Source of the DNA: an uncultured Alphaproteobacteria bacterium | GTDB taxonomy: Bacteria > Pseudomonadota > Alphaproteobacteria > Rhizobiales > Aestuariivirgaceae | Assembly: GCA_963805405.1 (NCBI GenBank) | Contig: CAWDUC010000010.1 | Location: 21,142 to 85,141, forward strand | DNA: 64,000 nucleotides | Direction: 5' to 3' | Part shown: in pieces, positions 4,406-20,843 of the stretch | Layout: every line of letters starts with the position of its first letter | How positions within the stretch are numbered: the stretch's first letter is position 1 | Program-made: the position numbers and the translations under genes | The notes under the pieces: model-generated | What the model was told of the DNA's origin: nothing | Seen by the model: the letters and a program-made list of their open reading frames with translations, nothing else | Database searches by the model: none

Positions 4406-4409
4406 CACC

Positions 4410-5172: not shown

Positions 5173-5190
5173 GCGGCGAAGGAAAATCCG

Positions 5191-5523
5191 ATGACCGATC
5201 ACAAGCTCGAAGTTTTGGCTGAACTCGCCGACACGGTGGCGGCGCGCCGCAATGCGTCGCCCGATGTCTCGTATACGGCGAAGCTATTGTCGCAGGGGAT
5301 CGAGAAATGCGCCAAGAAAGTCGGCGAGGAAGCGGTCGAGACCGCCATGGCCGCGGTAAAGGGCGATCGCGCCCATTTGCGCACCGAGGCAGCCGATCTC
5401 TTTTACCACCTCATCGTCCTTCTTGAAGTCTCCGGCACGCCGCTTTCGGACGTCATGAGCGAATTGGCCAAGCGCGTCGGCACCAGCGGCATTGCCGAGA
5501 AGGCCGGCCGCAAGACGGTCTGA
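5191..5523 (+). CDS. hisE: phosphoribosyl-ATP pyrophosphatase
   Basis: [50 protein letters not shown]...[11 protein letters not shown]; 110 aa. Confidence 0.92.
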
Positions 5524-5525
5524 TC

Positions 5526-6476
5526 ATGGAACAGCTCGCCAAGCAGGTCTCGCCCTTCCGCCGCTTCTCGCGCGAGGAATGGGCGAAACTGCGCGCCGAT
5601 ACGCCGCTCACTCTCGACCAGAGCGATCTCGACGAATTGAGGAGCTTGAACGATCGCATCGATCTCGACGAGATCGTGGCGATCTATCTTCCCTTGTCGC
5701 GCCTGCTCAATCTCTATGTCGCGGCGACCCAGGAACTTTTCCGCGCCACGCATCACTTCCTCCACATCGACAATCCGAAAGTGCCCTATGTCATCGGCAT
5801 GGCGGGAAGCGTCGCCGTCGGCAAGAGTACCACCGCGCGCATCCTGCAGCGGCTCCTCGCGCGCTGGCCGAACCACCCCAAGGTCGATCTTCTGACGACG
5901 GACGGTTTTCTGATGCCGAACGAAGTACTCGAGCGCGAAGGCTTGATGAGCCGCAAGGGCTTCCCCGAAAGCTACGATCTGCCGGCGATCTTGCGGGTCA
6001 TGTCGGAGATCAAGGCGGGAAGGCGCAATGTCGCGGCACCGATCTATTCGCATCTGAGCTACAATGTGCTGAAGGGCGAGCGGCAGATCATCGATCAGCC
6101 GGATATCCTGATCGTCGAAGGCTTGAACGTTCTGCAGACCGGCCGGCCGCCGCGCGACGGGCGTGGCATTCCCAACGTCTCCGATTTCTTCGACTTCTCC
6201 GTCTATATCGATGCCGATCTCGAGGATCTCCGAAGCTGGTATGTCGATCGCTTCTTTTCCTTGCGCGATACTGCCTTCAAGAATCCGAAATCATACTTCC
6301 ATCGCTATTCGGATCTGTCCGACAAGGAAGCGCGCTCGATCGCCAGCCGCATCTGGGAGACGATCAATCTCGTGAACCTGCGCGAAAATGTATTGCCCAC
6401 CCGCCAGCGCGCCGATCTCATCCTGCGCAAGGGCCACGACCACGTCATCCGCGGCGTCTGGCTCAGGAAGCTTTAG
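5526..6476 (+). CDS. coaA: type I pantothenate kinase
   Basis: [42 protein letters not shown] (P-loop), [11 protein letters not shown]; 316 aa, intact. Confidence 0.93.
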
Positions 6477-6480
6477 CCGT

Positions 6481-7473
6481 TCACATCAACCCGTGCTTCT
6501 TCGCGTGCTCGGCGAGATTCACTTCCGGACGCGCCCCGATATGCGAGATGACTTCCGCTGCCGCGAGGCCACCGAGCCTCGCGCAGTGATCGAGCGGCTT
6601 GCCATGCGTGTATCCATAGAGAAACCCTGAGGCGAAGAGATCGCCGGCCCCCGTCGCATCGACGAGTTTCTTGATCGGATACGCCGGAACCGTGTGGAGC
6701 GTATCGCCGGATACCACGACACAGCCCTTTTCCGAACGCGTCAGGACCGCGATCTCGCAGTCTTCCGCCGCAAGCTCGAGTGCGGTGCTGAAATCGTCAG
6801 TCTGGTAAAGCGAGATGATCTCCGTCTCGTTTGCGAAGACGATGTCGATCTGGTTCTTGATGAGATCGAGGAAGCTGTCGCGATGCCGGTCGACGCAGAA
6901 GGAATCGGAAAGCGTGATCGCCGTCTTGCGTCCCGCCTGCGCGCGCGATCGCCGCGGCCTTGACGAAGGCTTCCTTCGCTTCCGGCCGGTCCCACAGATA
7001 GCCTTCCATGTAGGTGACGGCGGCGCCCGCGACGATCTCGGGCACGATATCGGCGACGGTCAGGTTCACGCAGGCGCCGAGATAGGTATTCATCGTGCGC
7101 TCGCCGTCTGGCGTCACCAGGATGAAGCTCCTCGCCGTTGCCGGGCCGTCGACGGCGCGGGCCGAATCGAAATGCACGCCCTGCGCGCGCAAATCATGGC
7201 CGAAGAGATCGCCCATCTGGTCCTGCTTGATCTTGCCGAAATAGGCCGAGCGGCCTCCGAAGGAGGCGATGCCCGCCGCGGTATTGCCGGCCGAGCCGCC
7301 GGAGATCACCGTCGCCGGTCCCATGTCGGCAGAACAGTTCCTCCGCCATTGTCTCGTCGATCAAGCGCATCATGCCCTTGGCAGACCTGGTGCTTTTCGA
7401 GGAACCGCTCATCGACGCGGGCGAGGACATCGACAATGGCATTGCCGATGGAGAGGACGTCAAAACGCGTTAG
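6481..7473 (-). pseudogene. PfkB-family carbohydrate/adenosine kinase (at least 3 frame changes)
   Basis: N-terminus MSLTRFDVLSIGNAIVDVLARVDERFL (ATG ~7473), then KGMMRLIDETMAEELF in a second frame, then MGPATVISGGSAGNTAAGIASFGGRSAYFG...TPDGERTMNTYLGAC...VTYMEGYLWDRPEAKEA in ORF 6797..7324; the C-terminus DATGAGDLFASGFLYGYTHGKPLDHCARLGGLAAAEVISHIGARP is in ORF 6481..6717. Confidence 0.8.
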
Positions 7474-7563
7474 CGACATGGGAAGCCTTGGAAGAATGCG
7501 GGAATTCAGCCGATAGACGATGCCTCTTGTCGCCGCAAGGGAGGCTGATTATCTCTCAGCGCC

Positions 7564-8229
7564 ATGATACGGGCAGCTTTCAAGGCGCTTCAGGATCTCC
7601 TTTCGCCGGAGTTTCGCGGCATTCTGTTCAAGGCCCTGGGCCTGACGCTCCTGCTCTTCATCGCCGTTTTCGTCGCCGTCGAGATCATCCTCACATCCTT
7701 GACCCTCGTTCCCTGGGATTGGGCGGAGAACCTGATCGCGGTCATCGCCGGGCTTGGGCTTCTCGTCGCCTTCTTCTTCCTCGCGACGCCCGTGACGGCG
7801 ATGTTCGCCGGGCTCTTCCTCGACCGGGTCGCGGGCTTTGTCGAGAAGCGGCACTATCCGCGCGATCCGCCGGGCGTCGATCTGCCATTGCGCCAGGCGA
7901 TCACCACTGCCTTGCAATTCGCGGTGATCATCCTGCTCGTCAATCTGGCGATCCTGCCGGCGATCTTTTTCGGCATTGGCGCCATCGGCCTCGTCATCGC
8001 CAATGCCTATTTGTTAAGCCGCGAATATTTCGAGATGGCGGCGATGCGCTATATGGATGTCGAGGATGCCAAGGAATTCCGCCGCATCAACTCGCCGCAA
8101 GTCCTGATGTCGGGCTTTATCCCGGCGCTCCTGGCGCTCGTTCCGATCGTCAACCTCGTCGTGCCGCTCTTCGCGACCTCATACTTCATGCACATCCTCA
8201 AAGGGATGCGGAGGCGGTCTTCGGCGTGA
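7564..8229 (+). CDS. CysZ/EI24-family membrane protein (putative sulfate transporter family)
   Basis: 221 aa, multiple TM helices; LPLRQAITTALQFAVIILLVNLAILPAIFFGIGAIGLVIANAYLLSREYFEMAAMRYM resembles the PF07264 (EI24/CysZ) fold family; the C-terminal 10 aa are uncertain. Confidence 0.65.
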   Translation: MIRAAFKALQDLLSPEFRGILFKALGLTLLLFIAVFVAVEIILTSLTLVPWDWAENLIAVIAGLGLLVAFFFLATPVTAMFAGLFLDRVAGFVEKRHYPRDPPGVDLPLRQAITTALQFAVIILLVNLAILPAIFFGIGAIGLVIANAYLLSREYFEMAAMRYMDVEDAKEFRRINSPQVLMSGFIPALLALVPIVNLVVPLFATSYFMHILKGMRRRSSA

Positions 8230-8861
8230 AGCAGGCAGATGTCGGCGATCAGGCAATTGTAGCAGCGCGGCTTGCGCGCCAGGCACACATAGCGCCCATG
8301 CAGGATCAGCCAGTGATGCGCATGAAGCTTGTACTTTGACGGCACGATCTTCTCGAGCCCCATTTCCACTTCGTAGGGCGTCTTGCCCGGCGCCATGCCG
8401 GTGCGGTTGCCGACCCTGAAAATATGCGTGTCGACGGCAATCGTCGGTTCGTTGAAGGCGATGTTGAGCACGACATTGGCGGTCTTGCGCCCGACTCCCG
8501 GCAGGGCTTCCAGTGCGGCGCGCTCGCGCGGGACTTCGCTTCCATGCTGTGCGATGAGCGCCTTTGACAGCCCGATCACATTCTTGGCCTTGGTGCGATA
8601 GAGCCCGATCGTCTTGATGAGGTCGCGTACCTTGTCTTCGCCGAGCGCGAGCATCTTCTCGGGCGTATCGGCAAGCTGGAACAGAGCCGGCGTCGCCTTG
8701 TTGACGCCGGCATCGGTCGCCTGCGCGGAGAGCACCACCGCGACCAGCAATGTGAAGGCGTTGAGGGAATTGAGTTCGCCTTTGGGATGGGGATCGGCTG
8801 CCGCGAAACGCTTGAAGATTTCCTCGACCTGCGCCGGCTTGAGCCGCCTCGCCTTCGCCAT
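8196..8861 (-). pseudogene. nth: endonuclease III (frameshift near C-terminus ~8240, causing read-through to 8049)
   Basis: TLLVAVVLSAQATDAGVNKATPALF...LPGVGRKTANVVLNIAFNEPTIAVDTHIFRVGNRTG (HhH-GPD) and the C-x6-C-xx-C 4Fe-4S loop CLARKPRCYNCLIADIC; an alternate frame gives the canonical end CLFTPKTASASL*. Confidence 0.85.
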
Positions 8862-8919
8862 GATGCCCCGTCCAATATGCCGCCTTCCTGCCTAGCCCGA
8901 TTGGCGTTTAGAACCAAGC

Positions 8920-9387
8920 ATGGCCGCGACCGAAACCAAGTTTCTCCTCACCCCGCATCGCTCCTTGTCGCGCAAGGGTTTTCTCATGGTGATGGGGACG
9001 ATCGCCGGGCTGAATCTCATTGGCGGCACCGCCTTCTGGCTGCTGGGCGCCTGGCCGGTCGTCGGCTTCATGGGGCTCGATGTCCTGCTCATCTGGTGGG
9101 CCTTCAAGGCGAATTTCGCTGCCGCCCGCCGCGCCGAGCGGATCGAGGTCACCGATCACGAACTGATCCTCGAACGCCTCTTGCCCGGCCGTCCGCCCTT
9201 GGAGAGCCGCTTTGTCCGCGGCTGGGTCAGGGTCGAACTGGAAGAAGACCAGGCTCGCGAATTGATTGGCCGTCTATTTCTCAATTCCCGTCACAAGCGC
9301 ACCGAGATCGGCTCGTTCCTCAGCCCTGCCGAGCGAAAGACGCTCGCCGGCGCCCTCAAACAGGCCTTGGCGCGCCCCCATATCTGA
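8920..9387 (+). CDS. DUF2244 domain membrane protein
   Basis: MAATETKFLLTPHRSLSRKGFLMVMGTIAGLNLIGGTAFWLLGAWPVVGFMGLDVLLIWWAFKANF...; two TM helices; 155 aa. Confidence 0.7.
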   Translation: MAATETKFLLTPHRSLSRKGFLMVMGTIAGLNLIGGTAFWLLGAWPVVGFMGLDVLLIWWAFKANFAAARRAERIEVTDHELILERLLPGRPPLESRFVRGWVRVELEEDQARELIGRLFLNSRHKRTEIGSFLSPAERKTLAGALKQALARPHI

Positions 9388-9435
9388 GCAAGAATCGGGT
9401 GGGCAGGGACTGTCCCGACCATTATTTTCGTATCA

Positions 9436-10304
9436 TGAACATGATCGACATCACCTCATCCCCCGCCCGCGACTATGCGCTGGTGAAACAGACCTTGGGC
9501 TTCATCAAGGAAAACTGGCGCGAACAACCAACGCTCGAGACCATTGCCGACCAGGCTGGCCTCTCGCCCCATCATCTGCAGCGCCTCTTCACCCGTTGGG
9601 CCGGTCTCTCGCCCAAGGCCTTCCTCCAGGCGGTCACGCTTGACCACGCCAGGGGCCTGTTGCGCGATTCGGCCTCGATCTTGGATACGGCTTACGAGGT
9701 CGGCCTCTCCGGCCCCGGCCGCCTCCATGATCTCTTCGTCACCCATGAAGGCATGTCGCCCGGCCTCTACAAGGCCAAGGGCAAGGGCCTCGTCATCCAG
9801 TATGGCTTCCACGCCTGTCCGTTCGGCAATGCATTGGTGATGATCACCGACCAGGGCTTGGCCGGGCTCGCCTTTGCCGATGACGGCGACGAGAAGGCAG
9901 CGCTTGCCGACATGACCTCCCGCTGGAAGGAGGCTGACTATGTCGAGGACCATGCAGCAACAGCGCCCTATGCCGAGCGCATCTTCAAGCCGGAAAACTG
10001 GCGCCCCGACGAGCCTTTGCGCGTCGTCTTCATCGGCACCGATTTCGAGATCAGGGTGTGGGAGACATTGCTGCGCATCCCGTTGGGCCGTCGCACCAGC
10101 TATTCCGACATTGCCGCGCATCTGGGCAAGCCGTCGGCGGCGCGCGCCGTCGGCACCGCGGTCGGCCGCAATCCGGTTTCATTCGTCGTCCCGTGTCATC
10201 GCGTGATGGGAAAATCCGGAAGCCTCTGCGGTTATCACTGGGGCCTGACGCGCAAACGCGCCATCCTCGGCTGGGAAGCAGGCGTTGCTGCAAGCGCCGC
10301 TTAG
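9436..10304 (+). CDS. bifunctional AraC-type HTH regulator / methylated-DNA-[protein]-cysteine S-methyltransferase (Ada-like)
   Basis: N-terminal AraC HTH (TLETIADQAGLSPHHLQRLFTRWAGLSPKAFLQAVTL) plus C-terminal MGMT active site IPLGRRTSYSDIAAHLGKPSAARAVGTAVGRNPVSFVVPCHRVMGKSG (PCHRV motif). The true start is the internal ATG of the long ORF 8787..10304. Confidence 0.85.
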
Positions 10305-10317
10305 CGTATTTACAGAC

Positions 10318-10352
10318 TTCTCCCTCCTCGACGCGTAGCGTTGGGGAGGGAG
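10318..10352. terminator. bidirectional terminator hairpin between convergent ada-like and mttB-like genes
   Basis: tctccctcc-(17 nt loop)-ggagggaga, a perfect 9-bp stem. Confidence 0.5.
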
Positions 10353-10358
10353 AGATCG

Positions 10359-11867
10359 CTAGAGTGCACCCCGCTTCCGCCGCTCCATGTAATCCTTGAG
10401 TGCTTCCTCGATGTCGGCATCGATCGGCGGCCGCTGGTAAGTCTCGACCATCTGCTTCCAGATGCGATTGGCCTTTTGCGGTGCCGTCTCGCTGCCGCGC
10501 TCGCGCCAGCTCTCGTAATTGTCCCAGTTGGAAACCAGCGGCGTGTAAAATGCCGTCTCGTAGCGCGCGAGTGTATGGGCGGTACCGAAATAATGCCCGG
10601 CCGGCCCGACATCGCGGATGGCGTCGAGCGCCAGGCTCTCGGTATCGACTGAAAACGGTTCGCAATAGGCGGCCATCATCTGCAGCATCTCGGCATCGAG
10701 AATGAGCTTCTCGAACGATGCCGTCAGCCCGCCATGCAGCCAGCCCGCTGCATGAAGTATCATATTGGCGCCGCCCATGACGGCACCCCACAGAGCCATC
10801 ATGCTTTCATAGGCCGCCTGGGCATCGACATCGTTCGCCGCATTCACATTGCTCGAGCGGAACGGCACGCCGATATGCCGCGCCAATTGTCCCGAGGCTT
10901 GCGCGGCCTGTGCATATTCCGGCGTGCCGAAGGCGGGCGCGCCGGACCGCATATCGACGTTCGACGTGAAGCCGCCATACATGACGGGCGTCCCCGGCCG
11001 GACGATCTGGCAGAGCACGATGCCGGCCAAGGCCTCTGCATGTTGCTGCGCGAGCGCCCCGGCCAATGTCACCGGCGACATCGCGCCTGCCAAGGTGAAC
11101 GGCGTCACCACCACGCATTGCCCGTGCTCGGCATAGGTCATGAGCCCTTCGGCCATCGGAATGTCGAGCTGCAAGGGCGAATTGGTATTGATGATGCAGG
11201 TAAAGACCGGCCGATCGATCAAGCCTTCGCGCGTCGTACCGAGCGAGATCGCCGCCATTTCGAGAGCATCGATCGAGCGCTCTGTGCCCAGTCCCTGCGG
11301 CTGCCAGTTCTTGTCGAGCAAGGTGATCTCGGCGAAGTACAGATCGAGATGGCGCGTTTCGGCGGGAAGATCGAGCGGCTCGAAGGGTCCGCCGCCTTCC
11401 TGATGCAGGATGTTGAGACCCTGCACGACCTTGAGATAGTCGCACATTTCGGCATAGGTGCCGGCCCGCCTGCCGCCTTCGAGATCCATCACATAGGCGG
11501 GGCCGCCGACGGAAGAGAAAATGCCGTTGCGCTTGCCGACCTTGACATTCCTCGCCGGATTGCGCGCTTCGAGGGTGAATTCCGCTGGCGCCTTGGCGAT
11601 GAGCTCGGTCACCATCGCGCGATCGAAACGAACCCGATCCTCGCCGGGCTCGATCCTCGCTCCGGCAGCGCGATAATATTCGCGCGCCCGCGGCTCCAGT
11701 ACCTTCATGCCGATCTCTTCAAGGACCGTCAGTGCCGTGTCGTGGATACGCTCAACCTGGTCGGCATTCAGAATCCGGATCGGCTCGTAAGGCAGCGAGA
11801 ATTGTTTCCACGGACGCTGTGCAATAGCGCCAACGATGCGGGTCGGGCGTTCGCGGCGGCGGCTCAT
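10359..11867 (-). CDS. trimethylamine methyltransferase (MttB) superfamily protein, non-pyrrolysine (putative quaternary amine:corrinoid methyltransferase)
   Basis: Intact ~503 aa: EYYRAAGARIEPGEDRVRFDRAMVTELIAKAP...GGPAYVMDLEGGRRAGTYAEMCDYLKVVQGLNILHQEGG...FTSNVDMRSGAPAFGTPEYAQA...ILHAAGWLHGGLTASFEKLILDAEMLQMM; no in-frame TAG. Confidence 0.85.
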   Translation of the reverse strand: MSRRRERPTRIVGAIAQRPWKQFSLPYEPIRILNADQVERIHDTALTVLEEIGMKVLEPRAREYYRAAGARIEPGEDRVRFDRAMVTELIAKAPAEFTLEARNPARNVKVGKRNGIFSSVGGPAYVMDLEGGRRAGTYAEMCDYLKVVQGLNILHQEGGGPFEPLDLPAETRHLDLYFAEITLLDKNWQPQGLGTERSIDALEMAAISLGTTREGLIDRPVFTCIINTNSPLQLDIPMAEGLMTYAEHGQCVVVTPFTLAGAMSPVTLAGALAQQHAEALAGIVLCQIVRPGTPVMYGGFTSNVDMRSGAPAFGTPEYAQAAQASGQLARHIGVPFRSSNVNAANDVDAQAAYESMMALWGAVMGGANMILHAAGWLHGGLTASFEKLILDAEMLQMMAAYCEPFSVDTESLALDAIRDVGPAGHYFGTAHTLARYETAFYTPLVSNWDNYESWRERGSETAPQKANRIWKQMVETYQRPPIDADIEEALKDYMERRKRGAL

Positions 11868-13900
11868 GGGTCTGGCCTTTCCCGCTTGAGAGGTGATTTT
11901 ACGACACTGCCGAATTCGCGCGCGAAGCGATGACCGGAAAAGACCGCGTCCGCAATATGCGAGGGATTGAAGCAATCGCCGATTCGCGTCATCGACGGCG
12001 CATCGGGCATCGAAGCCAATAGCTGATAAAGCAAATCATCCGGCGTCTTGCCGGTCACGAGTATCAATCGGCCAAGCGGCAGGCTCTTCTCTTGGCCCGA
12101 ATAGGCGCAGGCGAAGCACGCTTCATCGCGGCGTCGCGCTGACGAGCCCATGCGACAGGAGAAGCTCGACGCCAAGCTCAATCAAGCGTGCCTGGATGAA
12201 GCCCTGCTCGTCGGTCATCGCCGTCCATGACGAGACGACGGACCCCGGCGTGACATAGGTTACAGCGTGCCCGGCCGTCTTTAATTTCTCGGCCAGCGCA
12301 GTCGCCACTGCGTAATGGTCATCATCATAGATGACGATCGGGCTAGAGAGATCGCCGAGCGCATCGGGCGTGGCGACGGACGCGTCTGCGGCAATCTTGA
12401 CTGGCGTCTCGCCCACCGCGCCGATCCCATCCTTGCGCCAGGTGCTCCCGGTGGCGAGAACGACATGATCGGCGCCGAAGCCGATCACGTCTTCGGCCGT
12501 GAGCCGGCTTTCGCGATAGACCGAAACATTGGCGAGTTTCGAAGCATGTGCTCGCGATAGTCGCGCACCCGGATCCAGGTGCCGAGGCCCGGCAGTGCGG
12601 ACTCAGCAAGAACGCGCCCGCCCAATTGCGCCGTCGCCTCGGCCAGTGTCACCTCATAGCCGCGCTTGCCGAGCGCCAGCGCGCATTCGAGCCCGGCCGG
12701 GCCGCCGCCGACCACCAGCACATGCGCTCGTTGATGTTTCGGCTCGATCCGTTCCGGATGCCAGCCGCGCCGCCATTCCTCGCCCATGGTCGGGTTCTGC
12801 GTGCAGCGCAGATGGCACGCCTCGTTGTTGGCCGCCCGGCAGATATTGCAGCCGATGCATTCGCGGATTTCGTCCTCGCGGCCTTCGCGGATCTTGGTCG
12901 GCAGGAACGGATCGGCGATCGAGGGCCGCGCCGCGCCGATGAAATCGGTGAATGCCGCGCCTGATCTGGCGACACCATGAGATCGGGCGAGGTGAAGCGC
13001 CCGACCGTCGACCACCGGCTTCGATGGTCATGCGATTTGACGAAGGAAATATATTCGTCCTGGTAGCCTTCCTCGCCGAAAACGCGCGCACTCTTGAAAT
13101 CATTGCCGAGCGCTCCGGCGACATTCACGTCCCAAAGATCGGGCAATTCGGCGAGCATGGCCCATGATCTCGCGCGCCTCGCCATCGGCAGGTGATGCCG
13201 TGCGGCCCGTGCAGTTCATCGACCGCCATGCGTACCGCGACCGCCGCAGCTTGCCGCCGCGTCGCCTCGCGCGTCACCTCGATCATCTCGCGCAGCAGCC
13301 GCGCGCGGTTTTCGAGTCGAGCCGCCATATTCGTCGATGCGCCGGTTGGTGCGCGGCGACAGGAACTGGAAGGGCAGATAGTCGTGGCCGGCATAGACAT
13401 AGACGATGTCAAAGCCGGCCTTGACCGCGCGTTCCGCGGCGAGCCTCTGCCAGTCGCGGAAAGCGGCGATGTCGGCCTTGTCCATGGCGCGCGCGCCCAT
13501 CGGCTGAACGAATTTGGCGCGCTGGCCCGAAGGCGACAGCATCGGCTCGCGGGTCAGCCGGTTATTGGCGTGGAAGCCGCCATGCCAGAGCTCGACCGCG
13601 GCGAGGCTGCCATGGGCATGGACGGCATCGGCGATCTTGGCGAGCGCCTGGACATCGTCTTCGTCCCACAGGGTCAAATAGCCATAAGGGAAATCATCAG
13701 ACGACGGATGAATGGAGCAGTATTCGGTGCAGACCACGCCCCAGCCGCCTTCGGCCTTGATGCCGCGCAGGGCCGCGCGAGGCTTTCGGCGCGCGCCAGC
13801 CCATGCCGGTTGCATGCGGCGTCTGGTAGAAGCGGTTCGGCGCGGTGACCGGGCCGATCTTCATCTCCTGGAACAGGATATCGTAGCGGGGATTGCGCAT
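11864..13900 (-). pseudogene. trimethylamine dehydrogenase / N-methylproline demethylase (StcD)-like FMN-[4Fe-4S]-FAD oxidoreductase (at least 5 frame changes)
   Basis: Pieces across ORFs 13697..13948, 13216..13815, 13125..13412, 12649..13185, 12485..13015, 12123..12488 and 11864..12181: MRNPRYDILFQEMKIGPVTAPNRFYQTPHATGMGW, AEGGWGVVCTEYCSIHPSSDD, AVELWHGG, IECIGCNICRAANNEACHLRCTQNPTMGEEWRRGWHPERI, AHVLVVGGGPAGLECALALGKRGYEVTLAEA. These are collinear with the TMADH/DMADH family. Confidence 0.8.
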
Positions 13901-14036
13901 GTCTTTCCTTGTTGAACGTTTGTACAATAAGGAATGCACCCCGCGCAAGCCGATCCTCTCCCTTGCCCTTCACTTTGTCATTGCCGGGCTTGTCCCGGCA
14001 ATCCATCATGCAGGAACAGAATGGGAGGCCGCATCA

Positions 14037-15027
14037 ATGTCGCCAGTGAAATGGGGAATCATCTCGACCGCCAAGATCGGCACCGAGAAAGTCATTCCCG
14101 GCATGCTCAAGAGCAAGCATCTCGAAGTCGTCGCCATCGCGTCTCGCGACTTGAAGACCGCCAAGGCCGCGGCCAAGAAGCTCGGCATTCCGAAAGCCTA
14201 TGGCTCTTACGAGGAGCTTCTCGCCGATCCCGAGATCGAGGCGGTCTATAACCCGCTGCCCAATCATCTCCACGTGCCGTTGACCTTGAAAGCCGCCGCC
14301 GCCGGCAAGCATGTCTTGTGCGAAAAGCCGATCGCCATCACCGCCAAGGAAGCGCAGAAGCTCAAGAAGGTGAAGCGCGGCATGCATGTCGCCGAGGCCT
14401 TCATGGTCCGCCACAATCCGCAATGGATCGAAGTCAAGGAGCGGGTCAAGAAGGGCGAGATCGGCACGGTGCGGGCGATCCAGGTCTTCTTCACCTATTA
14501 CCTCGACGATCCCTCGAACATCCGCAACATGGCGAAGATCGGCGGCGGCGGCATGCTCGATATCGGTTGCTACCCGATCACCGTCGCACGCTTCGTTTTT
14601 GATGCCGAGCCGAAGCGCGTCATCGCGCTCATCGATCGCGATCCCAAATTCAAGACCGACCGGCACCGCCAGCGGCATTGCCGATTTCGGCAATGGAAGG
14701 CAACTGACCTTCACCGTCTCGACGCAGACCGCACCCTATCAGCGCGCCCATATTGGCGGCACGAAAGGCCGCATCGAGGTCGAAATCCCGTTCAACGCAC
14801 CCCCCGACGTGCCCAACCGGCTATTCATCCAGGGCATGGAAATGAACAAGGGCCAGTGGCGCGAATTGCCGGTGAGCGACCAGTACCAGATGCAGGCGGA
14901 AGCCTTCGGCCGCGTCATCCGCAAACAGGATAAGCTCAAGCATGGCGTCGATGATGCGATCCAGAACATGAAAATCCTCGACGCCTTCTTCCGCTCCGCC
15001 AAGTCGGGGAAGTGGGAGAAGCCGTAA
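14037..15027 (+). pseudogene. Gfo/Idh/MocA family oxidoreductase (frameshift ~14660)
   Basis: MSPVKWGIISTAKIGTEKVIPGMLKSKHLEVVAIASRDLKTAKAAAKKLGIPKAYGSYEELLADPEIEAVYNPLPNHLH...CEKPIA in the ORF-13893 frame; the C-terminus ...GRQLTFTVSTQTAPYQRAHIGGTKGRIEVEIPFN... is in ORF 14386..15027. Confidence 0.82.
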
Positions 15028-15219
15028 TCTCCTTACGCGGGAACGGCCGAGAATCCACAACTAGGAATAGAAATCAACGCTGGGTGGCCTAGGAAGCCCG
15101 TACAGCGAGTTTCGGGCCTTCTCGGCCACCCCCCTAGCGGCCCACCCGGCGCAGGGGCTCTACGTCGTTCCTGGTTACGTTCTAAGGCCTGTCTGGCGGC
15201 CGAGGTCGCCTTACCGGCC

Positions 15220-16121
15220 CTACCCTTGGTTCCAGAGCCGCGCGGCACCCCTGACCCCGCTCTTTTCCCCATGGGCAGCCCGCGCCACCCGGACTTTGGC
15301 CTGCCCGGAGAAGGTGTAGGGGCGCGTCCGCGCGCCCAGTTCCTCGACCAGTTCGGGAAGCGACGACAATCCGCCCCCGACCACGAAAATATCGGGATCG
15401 AGCGTATTGACGAGGCTGGCGGTCACTCTTGCGAAACGATCGGCGAGGCGCTCCAAAGCAGCCTTGGCGGCACTCTCCCCGGCCCTCGCCCGTGCGACGA
15501 TCTCGGCACCTTTGAGCGATGTCCCGTCACCGCGTTGTAGTCGCGGGCAAGGCCGGTGCCCGAGACATATTGCTCGACGCAGCCGGCTTTCCCGCAAAAG
15601 CACGGCAGCAACGGCCACTCCGTCTCGTTCGGCCAGGGCAAGGCGAGATGTCCGAATTCAGCGGCTTCGGCATTGGGGCCGGACCGCAATCTGCCGTCGA
15701 TGACGAGTCCGCCGCCCAGCGCGGTGCCGATCGTGTAGAAGCAGACGACCGGATAGCCTGCCCCTGCGCCGTCGAAGGCTTCCGACAGCGCGAAGCAATT
15801 CGCGTCATTCTCGAGCTTCACCGGCAACGCGATGGCTTTGGCGAGATCGCCAGGCAATGGCCGGCCGTTGCAAAAGACCATGTTCGCATTGCGCCACAGG
15901 CCTGTCTCGGGCGAGGCCGAACCCGGCGCGCCGATGCCGACGGTGGCGTCCGGTCCTGCGACTTTCGCCGCCTCGCCGACAAGCGCCGCGACGGCCTCGA
16001 TCAGCTTTGCATAATCGCCCGGCGTCGTGATCCGCCTTTCGAATTGCGATTGGCCTTCGGATGAGAGAACCAAGGCATCGATCTTGGTGCCGCCAATGTC
16101 GATGCCGATGCGCGACGGCAT
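15220..16121 (-). pseudogene. ROK family sugar kinase (N-acetylglucosamine kinase-like; frameshift ~15540)
   Basis: MPSRIGIDIGGTKIDALVLS...GIGAPGSASPETGLWRNANMVFCNGRPLPGDLAKAIALPVKLENDANCFALSEA...EFGHLALPW...CFCGKAGCVEQYVSGTGL in ORF 15423..16121; the C-terminal DIFVVGGGLSSLPELVEEL...RVARAAHGEKSGVRGAARLW is in ORF 15220..15618. Confidence 0.85.
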
Positions 16122-16127
16122 GGTCTC

Positions 16128-16460
16128 TCAAGTGCGCTTGTAGACATCATCATAGCGGATGATGTCGTCTTCGCCGAGATAGTCGCCGAATTGTACTTCG
16201 ATCACCGCGACCTCGTCCTTGCCGAAATTCTCGAGCCGGTGCTTGGCGCCTTGCGGAATATCGATCGATTGCGCGCGCGTATATTCTTTGACGCTGTCAT
16301 TGACAGTCACCGTCGCGGTGCCGTTCACCACCGTCCAGTGCTCGCCGCGGTGCTTATGGCTCTGCAGTGAGAGGCGCCCGCCCGGCTTTAACCACGATGC
16401 GCTTCACCTTGAAGCCCGGCTGCTCGTCGAGAACATGAAATGCCCCCCAGGGCCGTTCCT
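16128..16460 (-). pseudogene. cupin-domain protein (mannose-6-phosphate isomerase type II C-terminal-like; 1-nt indel ~16395)
   Basis: MYSEERPWGAFHVLDEQPGFKVKRIVVK then a shift to PGGRLSLQSHKHRGEHWTVVNGTATVTVNDSVKEYTRAQSIDIPQGAKHRLENFGKDEVAVIEVQFGDYLGEDDIIRYDDVY. Confidence 0.78.
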
Positions 16461-16494
16461 CGCTGTACATGGTTTGATACTCCGCGAACTCTCA

Positions 16495-17300
16495 ATTGTC
16501 CCACTTCGGCGCCCAGCCCGACGGCGAGATCAAGCGCCGGTTGCCCATGCTCACTTGCGTGATCGCATCCATGTCGGCTTGCGACAGGACGAGATCGAGC
16601 GCCCGCAGATTGGACTGCGCATTCTCGCGCTTCGTCGTCATCGGGATCGCCACGACATCCTGCTGCATGATCCAGGCGAGCGCCACTTCCGAGGCTGGCC
16701 GCTTAAACGATAGCCGATCTCCTGGATGACCTTGTTCTTCATCGCTTCGCCGCGACCCAAGGGACAATAGGCCATCAACGCCATGCCAAGCCTTGCGGCT
16801 TCCGCCTTTACGCGCGCCTGATCGATCAAAGGATGAAACTCGACCTGGTTGGCGATGAGCGCATGGGCGGTGCGTGCTTGTGCCCGCTGCATCATCGCGA
16901 TGGTGAAATTGCTCACCCCGATCGCCTTCGCGAAGCCGCGCTCCTTCGCTTCGATGAGGAGATCCACTGCCGTGTCGAAATGCTTGTCCGCGGGTGGCCA
17001 ATGGATGAGGAGAAGGTCGACGGGGCCGCCAAGATGCGCGATCGACCGCTCGACCGAAGTAAGAAAGCGATCGGCGCCGATATTGCCCGGATCGACCTTG
17101 GTGACGATGTAAAGATCCTGACGCTGGATGCCGGAGCGTTGAAGCGCGCGGCCGACCTCGGCCTCGTTGCCATACATTTGCGCCGTGTCGACATGCCGGA
17201 AACCGAGTTCGAGGGCTGTTGCGATCGCCCGGTCGGCCTCATCGCTCGACAAGGGATAGGTGCCGAAGCCCAGGATCGGGATGCCGTTGACGCGCTTCAT
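16495..17300 (-). pseudogene. aldo/keto reductase family oxidoreductase (frameshift ~16710)
   Basis: ILGFGTYPLSSDEADRAIATALELGFRHVDTAQMYGNEAEVGRAL...DLYIVTKV...VDLLLIHWP...KAIGVSNF...NQVEFHPL in ORF 16638..17300; the C-terminus ...EVALAWIMQQDVVAIPMTTKRENAQSNL is in ORF 16492..17001. Confidence 0.85.
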
Positions 17301-17368
17301 GGCAATGTCTGCGTGGTTGCGTTGGCGCCGTTATCGCGCGGCGCTGACATGCTGGCAACAGCAGGAGG

Positions 17369-17983
17369 CTAGTCGCCGACCTTCTCGTTTGGATAGACGC
17401 CCCACAGCATCGTTTGTTCTATCCAGCCTTCATAGCCGCTGACCGAGATCTGGCACCAGGTGCCGCTGCAATCCTCGATCTCGGCGACGACGCCCGAATT
17501 GACCTTGGCGATCAGCCCGCCTTCGAGACCTGCGGCGGAATACATCGGAATCGCATCGCCCTTTCGCCAGGGCGCCACCAATGCGGTACGCTTGCCAGCG
17601 AGCATGCTCTGATAGACCCAGCCCTCTTCGCCATCATTGTCGCGAATGCGCCGCCAATTCTCGAATTCGGCGACGATCTCGACCGGCAGGCCGCGGCGTT
17701 GGAACACCCAGGCGACCTGATGCTCGCTGGCCGGCCCGCGCCGGACATTGACCTTTTCGGCCTTGAGCGAAACGAAGCGCGGTAACGGCAATCCCGTGGC
17801 GCCGACCACCACATCCGGGCGTCCCAGCGAGGCAGTGATTTCGCCTGCCGCCGGTTCGGCGGTGGCGACACCCGAATTTCTCTTTGAAAACAACGCGTAG
17901 GCCGTGGCGAGAGCAATCGCGAGACAGCTCACAGCCATCGTCACGGAGCCGATCCGGCGCATGATCGACCGCGAATCACTCAT
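17369..17983 (-). CDS. SH3b (bacterial SH3-like) domain-containing secreted protein
   Basis: N-terminal signal/TM segment (SVTMAVSCLAIALATAYA), then two SH3-like repeats (RFVSLKAEKVNVRRGPASEHQVAWVFQRRGLPVEIVAEFENWRRIRDNDGEEGWVYQSML and PMYSAAGLEGGLIAKVNSGVVAEIEDCSGTWCQISVSGYEGWIEQTML). Confidence 0.75.
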   Translation of the reverse strand: MSDSRSIMRRIGSVTMAVSCLAIALATAYALFSKRNSGVATAEPAAGEITASLGRPDVVVGATGLPLPRFVSLKAEKVNVRRGPASEHQVAWVFQRRGLPVEIVAEFENWRRIRDNDGEEGWVYQSMLAGKRTALVAPWRKGDAIPMYSAAGLEGGLIAKVNSGVVAEIEDCSGTWCQISVSGYEGWIEQTMLWGVYPNEKVGD

Positions 17984-18254
17984 TTGCGCTACCCCAAGGA
18001 CCCACCCTTGTTCCCCGTCTCAAGCCGCTCCGCCAATCCCCTGAGCCGCCAGACCTCACCAAACCCTGCCACGCAAATGCGTCAACCCGATGGCTGCCGC
18101 ATTCTTCCCGGCTAAGGCTGTACAGTCCGCCCGATCATGCCCTAGACACCGAAGCCAGTCTAGAAGAGCCTCAGGTAGTACCCAAGGCACCCATGGCCGA
18201 ACCCTGGGCCTTCAGGGTTAAGGATGCGTCAAGAACGGCGGGCGAGGAAAACCC

Positions 18255-19244
18255 ATGACCAAAAGAAAACCCCTGGTGATTGTCACCCGCAAATTGCCCG
18301 ACGTTGTTGAGACCCGCATGCGCGAGCTGTTCAATACCAGGCTTAACGACGCCGACCAGCCGCTCTCGAAGGCAGAACTCGTCGAGGCCGTGAAGCAGGC
18401 CGAAGTCCTGGTTCCGACCGTCACCGACCGCATCGACAAGACGATCCTCGCCCAGGCCGGCGAGCAGTTGCAGCTGATCGCCAATTTCGGCAATGGCGTC
18501 GACAATATCGATGTCGAGACCGCGGTCGCCCGCGGTATTACCGTCACCAACACGCCGGGCGTGCTCACCGAAGACACTGCCGACATGACCATGGCCTTGA
18601 TCCTTGCCGTTTCGCGCCGTCTGATCGAGGGTGCGCAGGTCATCGGCCCGGACAATACTTGGCAGGGTTGGTCGCCGACCTGGATGCTCGGCTCGCGCAT
18701 CTGGGGCAAGCGTTTGGGCATCATCGGCATGGGGCGCATCGGTTCGGCGCTCGCCCGCCGCGCCAAGGCCTTCGGACTCCAGATCCACTATCACAACCGG
18801 AAGCCTGTCGCTTCCGTCCTCGAGGAAGAGCTTGAAGCGACCTATTGGGAAAGCCTCGACCAGATGCTCGCCCGCATGGACATCATCTCGGTCAACTGCC
18901 CGCACACCCCCGCGACCTATCATCTGCTCTCGGCACGGCGTCTCAAATTGCTGCGTCCCGTCGCCATCATCGTCAACACGGCGCGTGGCGAGATCATCGA
19001 CGAGAACGCACTCGCGCGCATGCTGGAGGCGGGCGAGCTCGGCGGTGCCGGCCTCGATGTCTTCGAGCATGAACCAGCGGTCAATCCGCGGCTTCTCAAG
19101 TCGAAGCGCACCGTATTGTTGCCGCATATGAGTTCGGCGACCATCGAAGGTCGCATCGACATGGGCGAGAAGGTGATCATCAACATCAAGACCTGGGTCG
19201 ACGGCCACAAGCCGCCCGACCGCGTCCTGCCTGCGATGCTTTAA
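18255..19244 (+). CDS. D-isomer-specific 2-hydroxyacid dehydrogenase (glyoxylate/hydroxypyruvate reductase-like)
   Basis: Intact 329 aa; GKRLGIIGMGRIGSALARRAKAFG (NAD Rossmann motif), IVNTARGEIIDENAL, GAGLDVFEHEP. Confidence 0.9.
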   Translation: MTKRKPLVIVTRKLPDVVETRMRELFNTRLNDADQPLSKAELVEAVKQAEVLVPTVTDRIDKTILAQAGEQLQLIANFGNGVDNIDVETAVARGITVTNTPGVLTEDTADMTMALILAVSRRLIEGAQVIGPDNTWQGWSPTWMLGSRIWGKRLGIIGMGRIGSALARRAKAFGLQIHYHNRKPVASVLEEELEATYWESLDQMLARMDIISVNCPHTPATYHLLSARRLKLLRPVAIIVNTARGEIIDENALARMLEAGELGGAGLDVFEHEPAVNPRLLKSKRTVLLPHMSSATIEGRIDMGEKVIINIKTWVDGHKPPDRVLPAML

Positions 19245-19293
19245 TACTTACGATCCCTGTCTCAATGCAAGGGCATTGGGAGAAAGAAGTACA

Positions 19294-20367: not shown

Positions 20368-20843
20368 GAGCGCACCTCACTTGTGTAAGGATCGGCAATG
20401 CCGAGACCGGTCAAGATCGCGACCTCGTGCGCTTCCATGACTTGCGCCTCGGCATCGCTCATGTGATCGAAGCCGGCAAGATGAAGCAGGCCGTGGACGA
20501 GGAGATGGCTCGTATGGGCGGCAAGCGATTTCTCCTGCTCCTCCGCCTCGCGCGCCACCACGCCGAAGGCGAGCGCAATGTCGCCGAGATGCCGCGGCGC
20601 ATCCGGTTCGGCAAATCTCGGCACCGAAGGAAAGGAAAGAACATTGGTCGGGCCTTGCTTGCCGCGCCAGGTGCGGTTGAGTTCGGCAACCGTTTCGTCA
20701 TCGCTGAACAGGATCGTCGTCTCCAAGGGCTCGGCACCGAAATCGACACGGCGCACGCATTGATCGGCAATGCGTTGCGCTTGTGCGTCGAGATTGTCTA
20801 TCGCCAGCCATGACGGATCGTCGATATCGATCGAAACCTTCAT
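20364..20843 (-). CDS. ybeY: rRNA maturation endoribonuclease YbeY
   Basis: ...PTNVLSFP...HLLVHGLLHLAGFDHMSDAEAQVMEAHE (HGxLHLxGxDH zinc motif). Confidence 0.92.
   Translation of the reverse strand: MKVSIDIDDPSWLAIDNLDAQAQRIADQCVRRVDFGAEPLETTILFSDDETVAELNRTWRGKQGPTNVLSFPSVPRFAEPDAPRHLGDIALAFGVVAREAEEQEKSLAAHTSHLLVHGLLHLAGFDHMSDAEAQVMEAHEVAILTGLGIADPYTSEVRS

What the first reader, a model, noticed from the sequence alone, without database searches (positions are those of the whole stretch)
10359..13900. Non-pyrrolysine MttB-superfamily methyltransferase next to a TMADH/StcD-like flavoprotein: candidate quaternary-amine demethylation module with no corrinoid partner
An intact ~503-aa MttB-superfamily protein with no in-frame TAG lies immediately upstream of, and overlaps by 4 nt (operon-like) with, a ~680-aa protein collinear with trimethylamine / dimethylamine dehydrogenase and N-methylproline demethylase StcD (MRNPRYDILF...GMGW; AVELWHGG; CIGCNICRAANNEACHLRCTQNPTMGEEWRRGWHPE; VLVVGGGPAGLE). 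Non-Pyl MttB homologues characterised so far (MtgB glycine betaine, MtpB proline betaine, MtcB carnitine) come from anaerobes and hand the methyl group to a corrinoid protein. No corrinoid-binding protein or its activator is present within 20 kb on either side. In an aerobic Rhizobiales setting, an MttB-like demethylase paired with a flavin N-demethylase could remove successive methyl groups from a betaine such as proline betaine or glycine betaine by a route not yet described. The flavoprotein gene is frameshift-riddled in this sequence. An AraC-HTH/MGMT (Ada-like) gene and a Gfo/Idh/MocA gene flank the pair.
Basis: partly seen in the sequence, partly recalled or inferred. Interest (0 to 1): 0.7.

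Follow-up and report, generated by a model that had tools for sequence, protein, structure and literature searches.

The report
Conserved flavoprotein–MttB amine demethylation operon
Two overlapping genes, a trimethylamine-dehydrogenase-type flavoprotein followed by a pyrrolysine-free MttB-type methyltransferase, form an uncharacterised operon conserved in many alphaproteobacteria that probably removes successive methyl groups from an unidentified betaine; the missing vitamin-B12 partner nearby is normal for such bacteria.

Summary
On the minus strand, a TMADH/histamine-dehydrogenase-clade FMN/[4Fe-4S] flavoprotein gene (13900→11864) overlaps by ATGA an intact 502-aa non-Pyl MttB-family gene (11867→10359). 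The flavoprotein→MttB order is kept in 65 of 71 informative genome loci. About half of the 80 loci also carry a BetI-like repressor, an Opp-type ABC importer and a CocE/NonD hydrolase. The MttB protein keeps the Arg and His that bind the substrate carboxylate in MtgB, but has Gly at both of MtgB's aromatic glycine-betaine contacts. That suggests an acidic quaternary amine bulkier than glycine betaine. The flavoprotein keeps the catalytic triad and the Fe-S cysteines, lacks the covalent-FMN cysteine, and is only 27% identical to putative StcD. Its 12 frameshifts look like sequence errors: 11 are +1 insertions, mismatch density is normal, and hisA and hisF are frameshifted too. The absent corrinoid partner is not evidence for a new route. 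A 2025 study showed that aerobic Ruegeria MtgB proteins use unlinked MtgC and MtgD. Verdict: a real, widespread, uncharacterised module built from known families, with unknown substrate and moderate interest.

The parts
11864..13900 (-). Upstream gene of the pair: a TMADH/histamine-dehydrogenase-clade flavoprotein. It has an OYE-type FMN domain, a [4Fe-4S] cysteine motif and an ADP/Rossmann domain, and would be about 672-674 aa once the frame is corrected. In this sequence it is broken by 12 frameshifts.
   Evidence: The fragments match PF00724, PF07992 and PF22620. tblastn with the intact orthologue shows frame switches -1/-2/-1/-3/-1. The frameshift-aware alignment gives 596/672 identical residues to L003 and no stops. 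The closest solved structures are 3k30 at 1.3e-200 and TMADH at 8e-152. dN/dS against L001 is 0.15.
10359..11867 (-). Downstream gene of the pair: an intact non-pyrrolysine MttB-superfamily methyltransferase of 502 aa. It is a putative quaternary-amine:corrinoid methyltransferase.
   Evidence: It matches PF06253 at 648.6 bits. Against TIGR02369 (the Pyl-containing MttB model) it scores only 300.6 bits, below the 525 cut-off. It is 94% identical to the orthologues in L001 and L003, with no indels. The closest structures are 4yyc (2e-109) and MtgB 2qne/9yce (1e-103). R337 (codon 10859-10857) and H372 (10754-10752) align with MtgB R312 and H348. G121 and G380 replace MtgB Y97 and F356. V341 (10847-10845) sits at the pyrrolysine-334 position.
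11864..11867 (-). ATGA overlap between the flavoprotein stop codon and the MttB start codon. This indicates translational coupling and a single operon.
   Evidence: The sequence reads ...CCAGACCCATGAGCCGC..., with GGGAAAGG 8-15 nt upstream of the ATG. The same 4-nt overlap occurs in L001 and L002.
12950..13314 (-). A cluster of nine +1 frameshifts inside the flavoprotein gene. This is probably a patch of sequence or assembly error.
   Evidence: Mismatch density against L003 in this stretch is ordinary, at 10-11%.
12797..12874 (-). Approximate location of the [4Fe-4S] cysteine motif, CIGCNICRAANNEACHLRCTQNP.
   Evidence: The motif is present in ORF 12485..13015. The cysteines are invariant in 66 flavoprotein orthologues. 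They align with TMADH C345, C348, C351 and C364. The coordinates are estimated from the position within that ORF.
13901..14036 (.). Divergent intergenic region between the flavoprotein gene and the Gfo/Idh/MocA gene. It presumably holds the promoter of the pair. It contains a REP-like palindrome, TTGCCGGG-N5-CCCGGCAA, at 13981-14001.
   Evidence: The sequence is shown. The palindrome occurs once in the window but three times in different intergenic regions of L003. It is therefore not a specific operator.

Best explanation
The two genes form one operon that encodes consecutive steps in the aerobic breakdown of an acidic quaternary amine (a betaine) of unknown identity.

Step 1 (inferred from family membership and conserved residues): the MttB-family TIM-barrel enzyme binds the substrate carboxylate through R337 and H372. 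It transfers one N-methyl group to the Co(I) of a corrinoid protein encoded elsewhere in the genome. That protein would be an MtgC-type or split-methionine-synthase-type protein, working with an MtgD-type methyl-corrinoid:tetrahydrofolate methyltransferase and a reactivation system.

Step 2 (inferred): the TMADH/histamine-dehydrogenase-clade flavoprotein oxidises a C-N bond of the resulting tertiary amine. It carries non-covalent FMN, a [4Fe-4S] cluster and an ADP domain. The reaction would release either formaldehyde plus the secondary amine, or an aldehyde plus dimethylamine. Electrons probably pass to ETF.

In about half of related genomes the pair sits with a BetI-like repressor, an Opp-type ABC importer and a cocaine-esterase-like hydrolase. 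This suggests that the natural substrate can arrive as an ester- or amide-linked conjugate.

The frameshifts in the flavoprotein gene are most probably sequence errors, so the module is probably functional in the organism.
For: Shown:
- Family assignments are clear for both genes.
- The genes overlap by ATGA.
- The flavoprotein→MttB order is kept in 65 of 71 loci across Hyphomicrobiales, Rhodobacterales and other lineages.
- Neighbours recur: a TetR gene in 40 loci, a hydrolase in 39 and ABC transporter genes in 29-37. They were identified as BetI-like, SBP_bac_5 and CocE/NonD.
- In Mesorhizobium the pair lies next to tdm and soxA.
- MttB R337, H372, W376, G121 and G380 are invariant in 81 sequences.
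- The Arg is shared by all characterised members, which all use acidic quaternary amines (PMC13080624, PMC12155760).
- The flavoprotein keeps the equivalents of Y169, H172 and D267 and the Fe-S cysteines.

From the literature:
- Aerobic R. pomeroyi MtgB proteins work with unlinked MtgC and MtgD, and genomes carry up to seven PF06253 paralogues presumed to act on other methylated compounds (PMC12478193).

Supporting the view that the frameshifts are artefacts:
- 11 of the 12 frameshifts are +1 insertions, and the corrected reading frame has no stop codons.
- dN/dS is 0.15.
- Mismatch density is ordinary in the indel cluster.
- hisA, hisF, AKR, ROK, cupin and Gfo also carry single frameshifts relative to L003.
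Against: - No substrate, activity or corrinoid partner was demonstrated.
- The rest of the genome could not be searched.
- Only one of the 84 related loci searched has a B12-binding protein within 10 kb, so corrinoid dependence rests on homology and on one study in another order.
- The flavoprotein lacks the Cys30 that forms covalent FMN in TMADH and HADH. Its substrate bowl (Y/L/N) matches neither enzyme.
- Two flavoprotein subtypes only 47-50% identical, one lacking H172 and Y60, pair with the same MttB orthogroup and show no covariation with it. A strictly shared substrate does not obviously predict this.
- The frameshift density in the flavoprotein gene (about 6 per kb) is roughly 12 times the local background. 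Uniform sequencing error does not explain it.
Confidence: 0.55

Rival explanations
1. One reading: the pair is a proline-betaine route. The MttB homologue would act like MtpB (proline betaine to N-methylproline), and the flavoprotein would act like StcD/HpbA (N-methylproline to proline).
For: - Proline betaine has exactly two N-methyl groups, which fits a stand-alone two-gene module (inference).
- The carboxylate-binding Arg and His are kept, while the glycine-betaine-specific aromatic residues are replaced by Gly, which should enlarge the pocket.
- A flavin-dependent N-methylproline demethylase follows the first demethylation in known pathways (PMC3950512).
- The linked hydrolase belongs to the X-Pro dipeptidyl-peptidase (S15) superfamily.
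Against: - The flavoprotein is only 27% identical to the putative S. meliloti StcD.
- That putative StcD groups with FadH/NCR rather than with TMADH.
- No proline-catabolism genes (putA), epimerase or ProX-type transporter recur next to the pair.
- The MtpB sequence could not be compared.
Confidence: 0.15
2. Ordinary glycine-betaine catabolism. The MttB homologue would be an MtgB isoenzyme (glycine betaine to dimethylglycine), and the flavoprotein a DgcA-like dimethylglycine demethylase.
For: - The regulator is BetI-like.
- soxA and tdm lie next to the pair in Mesorhizobium.
- MtgB-type glycine-betaine demethylation is established in aerobic alphaproteobacteria (PMC12478193).
Against: - Both aromatic residues that MtgB needs to bind glycine betaine are invariant Gly here. 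In MtgB, Y97A and F356L raise the Km by a factor of 300 to 800 (PMC13080624).
- Identity to MtgB and to 4yyc is at paralogue level.
- An esterase plus an Opp-type importer would not be needed for free glycine betaine.
- DgcA itself was not compared.
Confidence: 0.12
3. A corrinoid-independent or flavoprotein-coupled mechanism, the 'route not yet described'. The MttB-like protein would hand the methyl group to a non-corrinoid acceptor, or would work in a complex with the flavoprotein.
For: - The two genes are tightly translationally coupled.
- Corrinoid genes are almost completely absent within 10 kb, in 83 of the 84 related loci searched.
- Two different flavoprotein subtypes are recruited to the same position.
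Against: - Every characterised MttB-superfamily member methylates a corrinoid (PMC12155760, PMC13080624).
- Unlinked corrinoid partners are documented in aerobes (PMC12478193).
- No sequence feature found here points to another acceptor.
Confidence: 0.07
4. In this particular organism the flavoprotein gene is a true pseudogene, so the module is defunct or reduced to the methyltransferase alone.
For: The 2-kb flavoprotein gene has 12 frameshifts, while the adjacent 1.5-kb MttB gene has none. The local background is about 0.5 per kb.
Against: - 11 of the 12 events are +1 insertions, opposite to the deletion bias usually seen in bacterial pseudogenes (established knowledge).
- There are no nonsense codons after frame correction.
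- dN/dS is 0.15.
- Substitution density is normal in the indel cluster.
- Essential genes such as hisA and hisF are also frameshifted, so the sequence as a whole carries indel errors.
Confidence: 0.2
5. The flavoprotein is not a catabolic amine dehydrogenase. Instead it would supply electrons for reductive reactivation of the corrinoid partner, a RamA-like role.
For: It carries FMN, a [4Fe-4S] cluster and a nucleotide-binding domain, and it is always co-expressed with the methyltransferase.
Against: - It is about 50% identical to histamine dehydrogenase and keeps the amine-dehydrogenase catalytic triad.
- In aerobes, RamA and DUF1638 proteins fill the reactivation role (PMC12478193).
Confidence: 0.04

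Closest known systems
MtgB-MtgC-MtgD(-MtgE) cobalamin-dependent glycine betaine demethylase / split methionine synthase of aerobic Ruegeria pomeroyi, Phaeobacter inhibens and Sinorhizobium meliloti (Mausz et al. 2025, PMC12478193)
   Same: - The methyltransferase is a PF06253 protein without pyrrolysine.
- The host is an aerobic alphaproteobacterium.
- The methyltransferase gene is not linked to the corrinoid protein.
- Several paralogues occur per genome.
- Flavoprotein demethylases act downstream.
   Different: - The protein here is a distinct orthogroup. It is about 40-45% identical to MtgB and 4yyc, with Gly at both glycine-betaine aromatic contacts.
- It is fused into an operon with a TMADH-clade dehydrogenase.
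- Its substrate is unknown.
- R. pomeroyi MtgB1 and MtgB2 could not be compared directly.
Quaternary-amine:corrinoid methyltransferases of anaerobes: MtgB (D. hafniense; PDB 2qne, 9yce) and MtpB, MtcB, MtyB and MthB (Eubacterium limosum)
   Same: - The TIM-barrel MttB fold family is the same (E 1e-103 to MtgB).
- The conserved Arg (R312/R337) and His (H348/H372) for the substrate acid group are present.
- A hydrophobic residue replaces pyrrolysine: Leu in MtgB, Val341 here.
   Different: - The anaerobe enzymes are encoded next to or near their corrinoid protein, THF methyltransferase and RamA-type activase, and they feed acetogenesis or methanogenesis.
- Here no such genes are nearby, and the partner gene is an oxidative flavoprotein.
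Trimethylamine dehydrogenase (M. methylotrophus W3A1), histamine dehydrogenase (N. simplex, Rhizobium sp. 4-9) and 6-hydroxypseudooxynicotine dehydrogenase Pno/NdpC
   Same: - The three-domain architecture is the same.
- The [4Fe-4S] cysteines are kept.
- The Y169/H172/D267-type triad is kept.
- Similarity is E 1e-200 to histamine dehydrogenase and 8e-152 to TMADH, and 44% identity to an annotated ndpC.
   Different: - Cys30 (6-S-cysteinyl FMN) is Ala.
- The TMADH aromatic bowl Y60/W264/W355 is Y/L/N here. Histamine dehydrogenase has Q/W/D.
- The gene always lies upstream of an MttB-family gene.
Proline betaine (stachydrine) catabolism: Rieske HpbB/C or Stc2-4, followed by the flavoprotein HpbA/StcD (PMC3950512)
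   Same: The logic is the same: a first demethylation of a betaine, followed by a flavoprotein N-demethylase.
   Different: - The first step there is a Rieske oxygenase, not a methyltransferase.
- Putative StcD is only 27% identical to the flavoprotein here and belongs to the FadH-like branch.

Membership tests
MttB superfamily (PF06253) | A full-length match to the MTTB profile above the gathering score | tested here: met
   The match scores 648.6 bits against a cut-off of 25. Residues 3-499 align with profile positions 4-497 of 500.
Trimethylamine:corrinoid methyltransferase MttB proper (TIGR02369) | An in-frame UAG-encoded pyrrolysine at the position of M. barkeri Pyl334, and an equivalog score above the cut-off | tested here: not met
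   There is no internal stop codon. Val341 aligns with X334 of 7xcl. The TIGR02369 score is 300.6 bits, below the 525 cut-off.
Non-Pyl quaternary-amine methyltransferases (MtgB, MtpB, MtcB, MtyB, MthB) | The conserved Arg (MtgB R312) that salt-bridges the substrate acid group, with His348 less strictly conserved | tested here: met
   R337 and H372 align with R312 and H348. Across the 81 orthogroup sequences R337 is invariant, and H372 is His in 80 and Gln in one. The rule comes from PMC13080624.
Glycine betaine methyltransferase MtgB | The aromatic pair Y97 and F356, which makes cation-pi contacts with the trimethylammonium group | tested here: not met
   The aligned residues are G121 and G380. 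G380 is invariant across the 81 orthogroup sequences, and G121 is Gly in 80 and Ser in one. W376 and Y125 are conserved nearby and might substitute, but this could not be checked without coordinates.
Corrinoid-dependent methyltransferase system | A cognate corrinoid protein, a methyl-corrinoid:THF methyltransferase and a reductive activase in the genome | not testable with these tools
   None is present in the 64-kb window. Only one of the 84 related loci searched has a B12-binding ORF within 10 kb. The rest of the genome is not available.
TMADH / histamine dehydrogenase clade | An OYE-type FMN domain, a CxxCxxC...C [4Fe-4S] motif, an ADP-binding Rossmann domain, and the catalytic Tyr-His-Asp triad | tested here: met
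   The domains were found, with E 1.3e-200 to 3k30. The equivalents of Y169, H172 and D267 and the cysteines are present in the window sequence and invariant in subtype A.
TMADH / histamine dehydrogenase clade | Cys30, which forms 6-S-cysteinyl FMN | tested here: not met
   The window and L001 read PHATGMG, with Ala at position 30. All 31 subtype-A sequences have Ala. Of the 35 subtype-B sequences, 29 have Ala, 3 have Ser and 3 are gapped at this column. PDB entry 6l6j also has Ala here.
Trimethylamine dehydrogenase (substrate specificity) | The aromatic bowl Y60/W264/W355, which binds trimethylamine | tested here: not met
   The aligned residues are Y60, Leu and Asn.
N-methylproline demethylase StcD/HpbA | Orthologue-level similarity to S. 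meliloti StcD | tested here: not met
   The flavoprotein is 27% identical (E 1e-38) to the 678-aa pSymB ORF taken to be StcD. That ORF is closest to NCR and FadH. Its identification as StcD is an inference: PMC12239276 places stcD on pSymB, the ORF is the best homologue found there, and its length matches what I recall for StcD.
Dimethylglycine demethylase DgcA | Similarity to P. aeruginosa DgcA and an adjacent dgcB | not tested
   No DgcA sequence was available in the collections reachable here. No DgcB-like gene recurred among the neighbour clusters that were annotated.

The most novel reading that the evidence does not exclude
The MttB-family enzyme of this widespread operon would not use a corrinoid protein at all. 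It would work in a complex with its co-translated TMADH-type flavoprotein, or with another acceptor. The result would be an oxygen-tolerant, B12-independent way of removing methyl groups from a quaternary amine.
Probability: 0.07. Interest if true: 0.85.

Novelty: new member of a known kind. Interest (0 to 1): 0.4.

Why it matters
Only six MttB-superfamily members have a known substrate (PMC12155760). Aerobic alphaproteobacteria carry many paralogues whose substrates are unknown (PMC12478193).

This orthogroup is common in soil and aquatic Hyphomicrobiales and Rhodobacterales. It comes with a dedicated tertiary-amine dehydrogenase, and often with a regulator, an importer and an esterase. That makes it a well-defined target for finding a new betaine, or betaine-conjugate, catabolic pathway. 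It is also a target for learning what a TMADH-clade enzyme without covalent FMN does.

The finding does not by itself point to new chemistry.

Tried and rejected
1. The 38-nt perfectly conserved block upstream of the flavoprotein gene contains the palindrome TTGCCGGG-N5-CCCGGCAA. I considered it as an operator. It occurs in three unrelated intergenic regions of L003 and is absent from the other loci, so it is REP-like.

2. I looked for covariation between MttB residues and the flavoprotein subtype, as evidence of a shared substrate. None was convincing: MttB identity is 72% within subtypes and 69% between them.

3. An Rfam scan for riboswitches, including the cobalamin riboswitch, returned no match in the window.

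4. I examined the contexts of flavoprotein paralogues about 50% identical, on the Ralstonia megaplasmid and on S. meliloti pSymA. They are unrelated neighbourhoods (trp, lysA and pdxH genes; succinate-semialdehyde dehydrogenase) and gave no transferable function.

5. The Opp-type transporter at 57-64 kb of the window is only a generic homologue of the cluster-linked transporter. The window has no match to the cluster's TetR, binding protein or hydrolase.

6. Literature searches for the PDB code 6L6J, and for any description of an MttB plus TMADH-like operon, found nothing relevant. Ticak et al. 2014 is not held in the library.

7. Database names for both proteins are generic.

8. R. pomeroyi MtgB1/MtgB2, E. 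limosum MtpB/MtcB/MtyB/MthB and P. aeruginosa DgcA could not be retrieved for direct comparison.

Full report
**What is in the sequence.** Both genes lie on the minus strand. The MttB-family gene runs from the ATG at 11867 to 10359. It encodes 502 aa with no internal stop. It matches Pfam MTTB at 648.6 bits. Against the NCBIfam equivalog for the pyrrolysine-containing trimethylamine methyltransferase it scores only 300.6 bits, below the 525 cut-off.

The flavoprotein gene starts at the ATG at 13900 and ends with the TGA at 11866-11864. The two genes therefore share ATGA, and a GGGAAAGG ribosome-binding site lies just upstream of the MttB start.

These fragments match the OYE-type FMN domain and Rossmann-type domains. 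The Ada-like AraC-HTH/MGMT gene (9426-10304, +) and the Gfo/Idh/MocA gene (14037-15027, +) flank the pair as described.

**The frameshifts.** I aligned intact orthologues from two related contigs (L001 and L003; about 86% nucleotide identity, syntenic over 21 kb) to the window, allowing frameshifts.
- The flavoprotein gene needs 12 frameshifts. Eleven are +1 insertions, and nine fall within 13314-12950.
- The corrected product is 596/672 identical to L003 and has no in-frame stop.
- dN/dS against L001 is 0.15, within the range of the neighbouring genes.
- Mismatch density in the indel-rich stretch is ordinary, at 10-11%.
- hisA, hisF, the aldo-keto reductase, the cupin gene, the ROK kinase and the Gfo gene each carry one or two frameshifts relative to L003. 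MttB, the Ada-like gene, coaA and the 2-hydroxyacid dehydrogenase carry none.

Indels without excess substitutions, an insertion bias, and broken essential genes all point to sequence or assembly error rather than decay. The local density of about 6 per kb, against about 0.5 per kb elsewhere, is still unexplained. I leave 0.2 for a true pseudogene.

**Conservation of the pair.** A scan of one genome per species returned more than 590 relatives of the MttB protein, and the best 80 were kept (63-95% identity).
- Of the 71 loci with enough upstream sequence, 65 have a TMADH-family gene directly upstream on the same strand.
- The carriers are mostly Hyphomicrobiales (Mesorhizobium, Aestuariivirga, Taklimakanibacter, Pseudaminobacter) and Rhodobacterales, plus a few other lineages.
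- The flavoproteins fall into two subtypes. Subtype A (31 loci, including this window) is 58-88% identical to L001. Subtype B (35 loci) is 47-50% identical.
- The MttB proteins do not split along this line.
- L032 holds a second, divergent MttB/flavoprotein pair (45% and 31% identity), so the pairing recurs among paralogues.

**The extended neighbourhood.** Clustering the neighbouring ORFs showed further recurrent genes:
- a TetR gene in 40 loci
- a protein of about 680 aa in 39 loci
- ABC ATPases in 37 loci, a binding protein in 32, and permeases in 29-30

These lie in a fixed order, next to the pair or divergent from it. I identified them as follows:
- The TetR is BetI-like. It has a TetR_C_6 domain and scores 118.9 bits against the BetI model NF001978, whose cut-off is 118.
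- The binding protein belongs to SBP_bac_5.
- The transporter has Opp-type components.
- The large protein is a CocE/NonD-family hydrolase, whose closest solved relative is cocaine esterase at 2e-30.

PGAP gives only generic names on a Mesorhizobium plasmid that carries the whole nine-gene cluster beside a transposase. In several Mesorhizobium chromosomes the pair also lies next to a trimethylamine-N-oxide demethylase gene (1273 bits, cut-off 1100), soxA and an amino-acid permease gene.

The window has none of these extra genes. Here, as in L001 and L003, the pair sits among housekeeping genes. The Ada-like and Gfo neighbours are shared only with these closest relatives.

**The methyltransferase active site.** The closest solved structures are 4yyc (2e-109) and D. 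hafniense MtgB (2qne and 9yce; 1e-103). A 2026 study defined the residues of MtgB that bind glycine betaine: R312 and H348 for the carboxylate, and Y97 and F356 for the trimethylammonium group. It noted that the Arg is conserved in all characterised members, which all act on acidic quaternary amines, whereas the aromatic pair is not (PMC13080624).

In the window protein the alignments give the following:

| MtgB or MttB residue | Window residue | Conservation in 81 orthogroup sequences |
|---|---|---|
| R312 | R337 | invariant |
| H348 | H372 | His in 80, Gln in 1 |
| Y97 | G121 | Gly in 80, Ser in 1 |
| F356 | G380 | invariant |
| Pyl334 (MttB) | V341 | not assessed |

W376 is also invariant, and position 125 is Tyr in 77 sequences and Phe in 4.

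The pattern suggests a carboxylated or otherwise acidic quaternary amine that needs a roomier pocket than glycine betaine. This last step is an inference.

**The flavoprotein.** The intact orthologue matches the solved structures as follows:

| Structure | E-value |
|---|---|
| Histamine dehydrogenase, 3k30 | 1.3e-200 |
| Histamine dehydrogenase, 6de6 | 4e-187 |
| 6l6j (function unnamed) | 2e-181 |
| Trimethylamine dehydrogenase, 1djq | 8e-152 |
| 2,4-dienoyl-CoA reductase, 1ps9 | 2e-33 |

It keeps the four Fe-S cysteines and the equivalents of the Y169/H172/D267 triad. Cys30, which carries covalent FMN in TMADH and histamine dehydrogenase, is Ala. Of the TMADH aromatic bowl Y60/W264/W355, only Y60 remains, and the other two positions are Leu and Asn. 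Subtype B also loses Y60 and H172.

The best homologue on S. meliloti 1021 pSymB is a 678-aa ORF. I take it to be StcD, because stcD is on pSymB according to PMC12239276. It is only 27% identical to the flavoprotein and is closer to NCR and FadH than to TMADH. 'TMADH-like' is therefore accurate. 'StcD-like' holds only at the level of domain architecture.

**The missing corrinoid partner.** No B12-binding domain is detectable in the window. Only one of the 84 related loci searched has one within 10 kb.

This does not indicate a new route. Mausz et al. 2025 showed by proteomics and genetics that aerobic Ruegeria pomeroyi demethylates glycine betaine with PF06253 proteins (SPO2108, SPO2134). These work with a corrinoid protein MtgC (SPO2160) and a methyltransferase MtgD (SPO1863), which are encoded elsewhere and shared with methionine synthesis. 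The authors also report that such genomes hold up to seven PF06253 paralogues, which they expect to act on other methylated compounds (PMC12478193).

**Most likely mechanism.** The MttB homologue removes one methyl group from an acidic quaternary amine and passes it to a corrinoid protein encoded elsewhere. The flavoprotein then oxidises the tertiary amine product.

The order of the two steps follows from chemistry and from family knowledge, as an inference. A quaternary nitrogen has no lone pair for a TMADH-type oxidation. Conversely, a non-Pyl MttB is not expected to activate a tertiary amine.

By analogy with histamine dehydrogenase and Pno, the flavoprotein may cleave the carbon-chain C-N bond, giving an aldehyde plus dimethylamine. 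By analogy with TMADH, it may instead remove a methyl group as formaldehyde. Aldehyde dehydrogenase, class-III aminotransferase, tdm and sox genes occur next to the pair in some loci. This leaves both options open.

The linked esterase, importer and BetI-like repressor suggest a conjugated betaine or choline-type ester as the natural source in many carriers. I could not identify the substrate. I rate proline betaine at 0.15 and glycine betaine at 0.12.

**Novelty and verdict.** I found no paper that describes this operon, and database names are generic. Both proteins are uncharacterised members of well-known families. The pathway logic matches known betaine catabolism, so I file the finding as a new member of a known kind. 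It is a good, widely conserved target for substrate discovery, but it is not evidence for new chemistry. Interest is 0.4.

Noticed in passing
window 2900-23300 (for example 3127, 4854, 6920, 7380, 15520, 16389, 16705, about 14660): Many housekeeping genes carry single frameshifts relative to the syntenic contig L003: hisA, hisF, a PfkB kinase, ROK, a cupin gene, an aldo-keto reductase and the Gfo gene. miaB appears to be split as well. The window as a whole seems to carry indel errors at about 0.5 per kb.
   Followed up: partly
window 13981-14001; L003 5154-5174, 7813-7833, 11596-11616; L001 7879-7899: A 21-bp perfect palindrome, TTGCCGGG-N5-CCCGGCAA, sits inside a 38-nt block that is 100% conserved between the window and L003. 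It recurs in several intergenic regions of L003, so it looks like a REP-type repeat of this lineage.
   Followed up: partly
L083 (Mesorhizobium sp. B2-1-8 plasmid) 11914-23642, and about 40 other loci: A nine-gene cluster contains the flavoprotein, MttB, a BetI-like TetR, an SBP_bac_5 binding protein, two ATPases, two permeases and a CocE/NonD hydrolase. On this plasmid it lies beside a transposase, so it may be a mobile catabolic island. The hydrolase substrate is unknown.
   Followed up: partly
L022, L024, L026-L029 (Mesorhizobium), about 1-7800: Genes for the sarcosine oxidase alpha subunit, a trimethylamine-N-oxide demethylase (NF053776, 1273 bits) and an APC-family permease lie directly upstream of the flavoprotein-MttB pair.
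   Followed up: partly
66 flavoprotein orthologues in loci L001-L082: Two flavoprotein subtypes only 47-50% identical occupy the same position upstream of one MttB orthogroup. Subtype B has Ala for Y60 and Met for H172. Neither subtype has the covalent-FMN cysteine.
   Followed up: partly
L032 26-2958 (minus strand): A second, divergent MttB/flavoprotein pair (45% and 31% identity to the query proteins) lies in the opposite gene order, a few kb from the orthologous pair.
   Followed up: no
window 9426-10304 (+) and 51229-51936 (-): The window holds an Ada-like AraC-HTH/methyltransferase gene. By eye, the ORF at 51229-51936 looks like an AlkB-type 2OG-Fe(II) oxygenase, but this was not checked with a profile search. 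If so, both would be DNA-alkylation repair genes. They are unrelated to the pair.
   Followed up: no
L084 (S. meliloti pSymA) 6409-11088: A flavoprotein paralogue 51% identical lies next to a succinate-semialdehyde dehydrogenase gene and an alpha/beta hydrolase gene, with no MttB gene nearby. It may act on a GABA-type amine.
   Followed up: no
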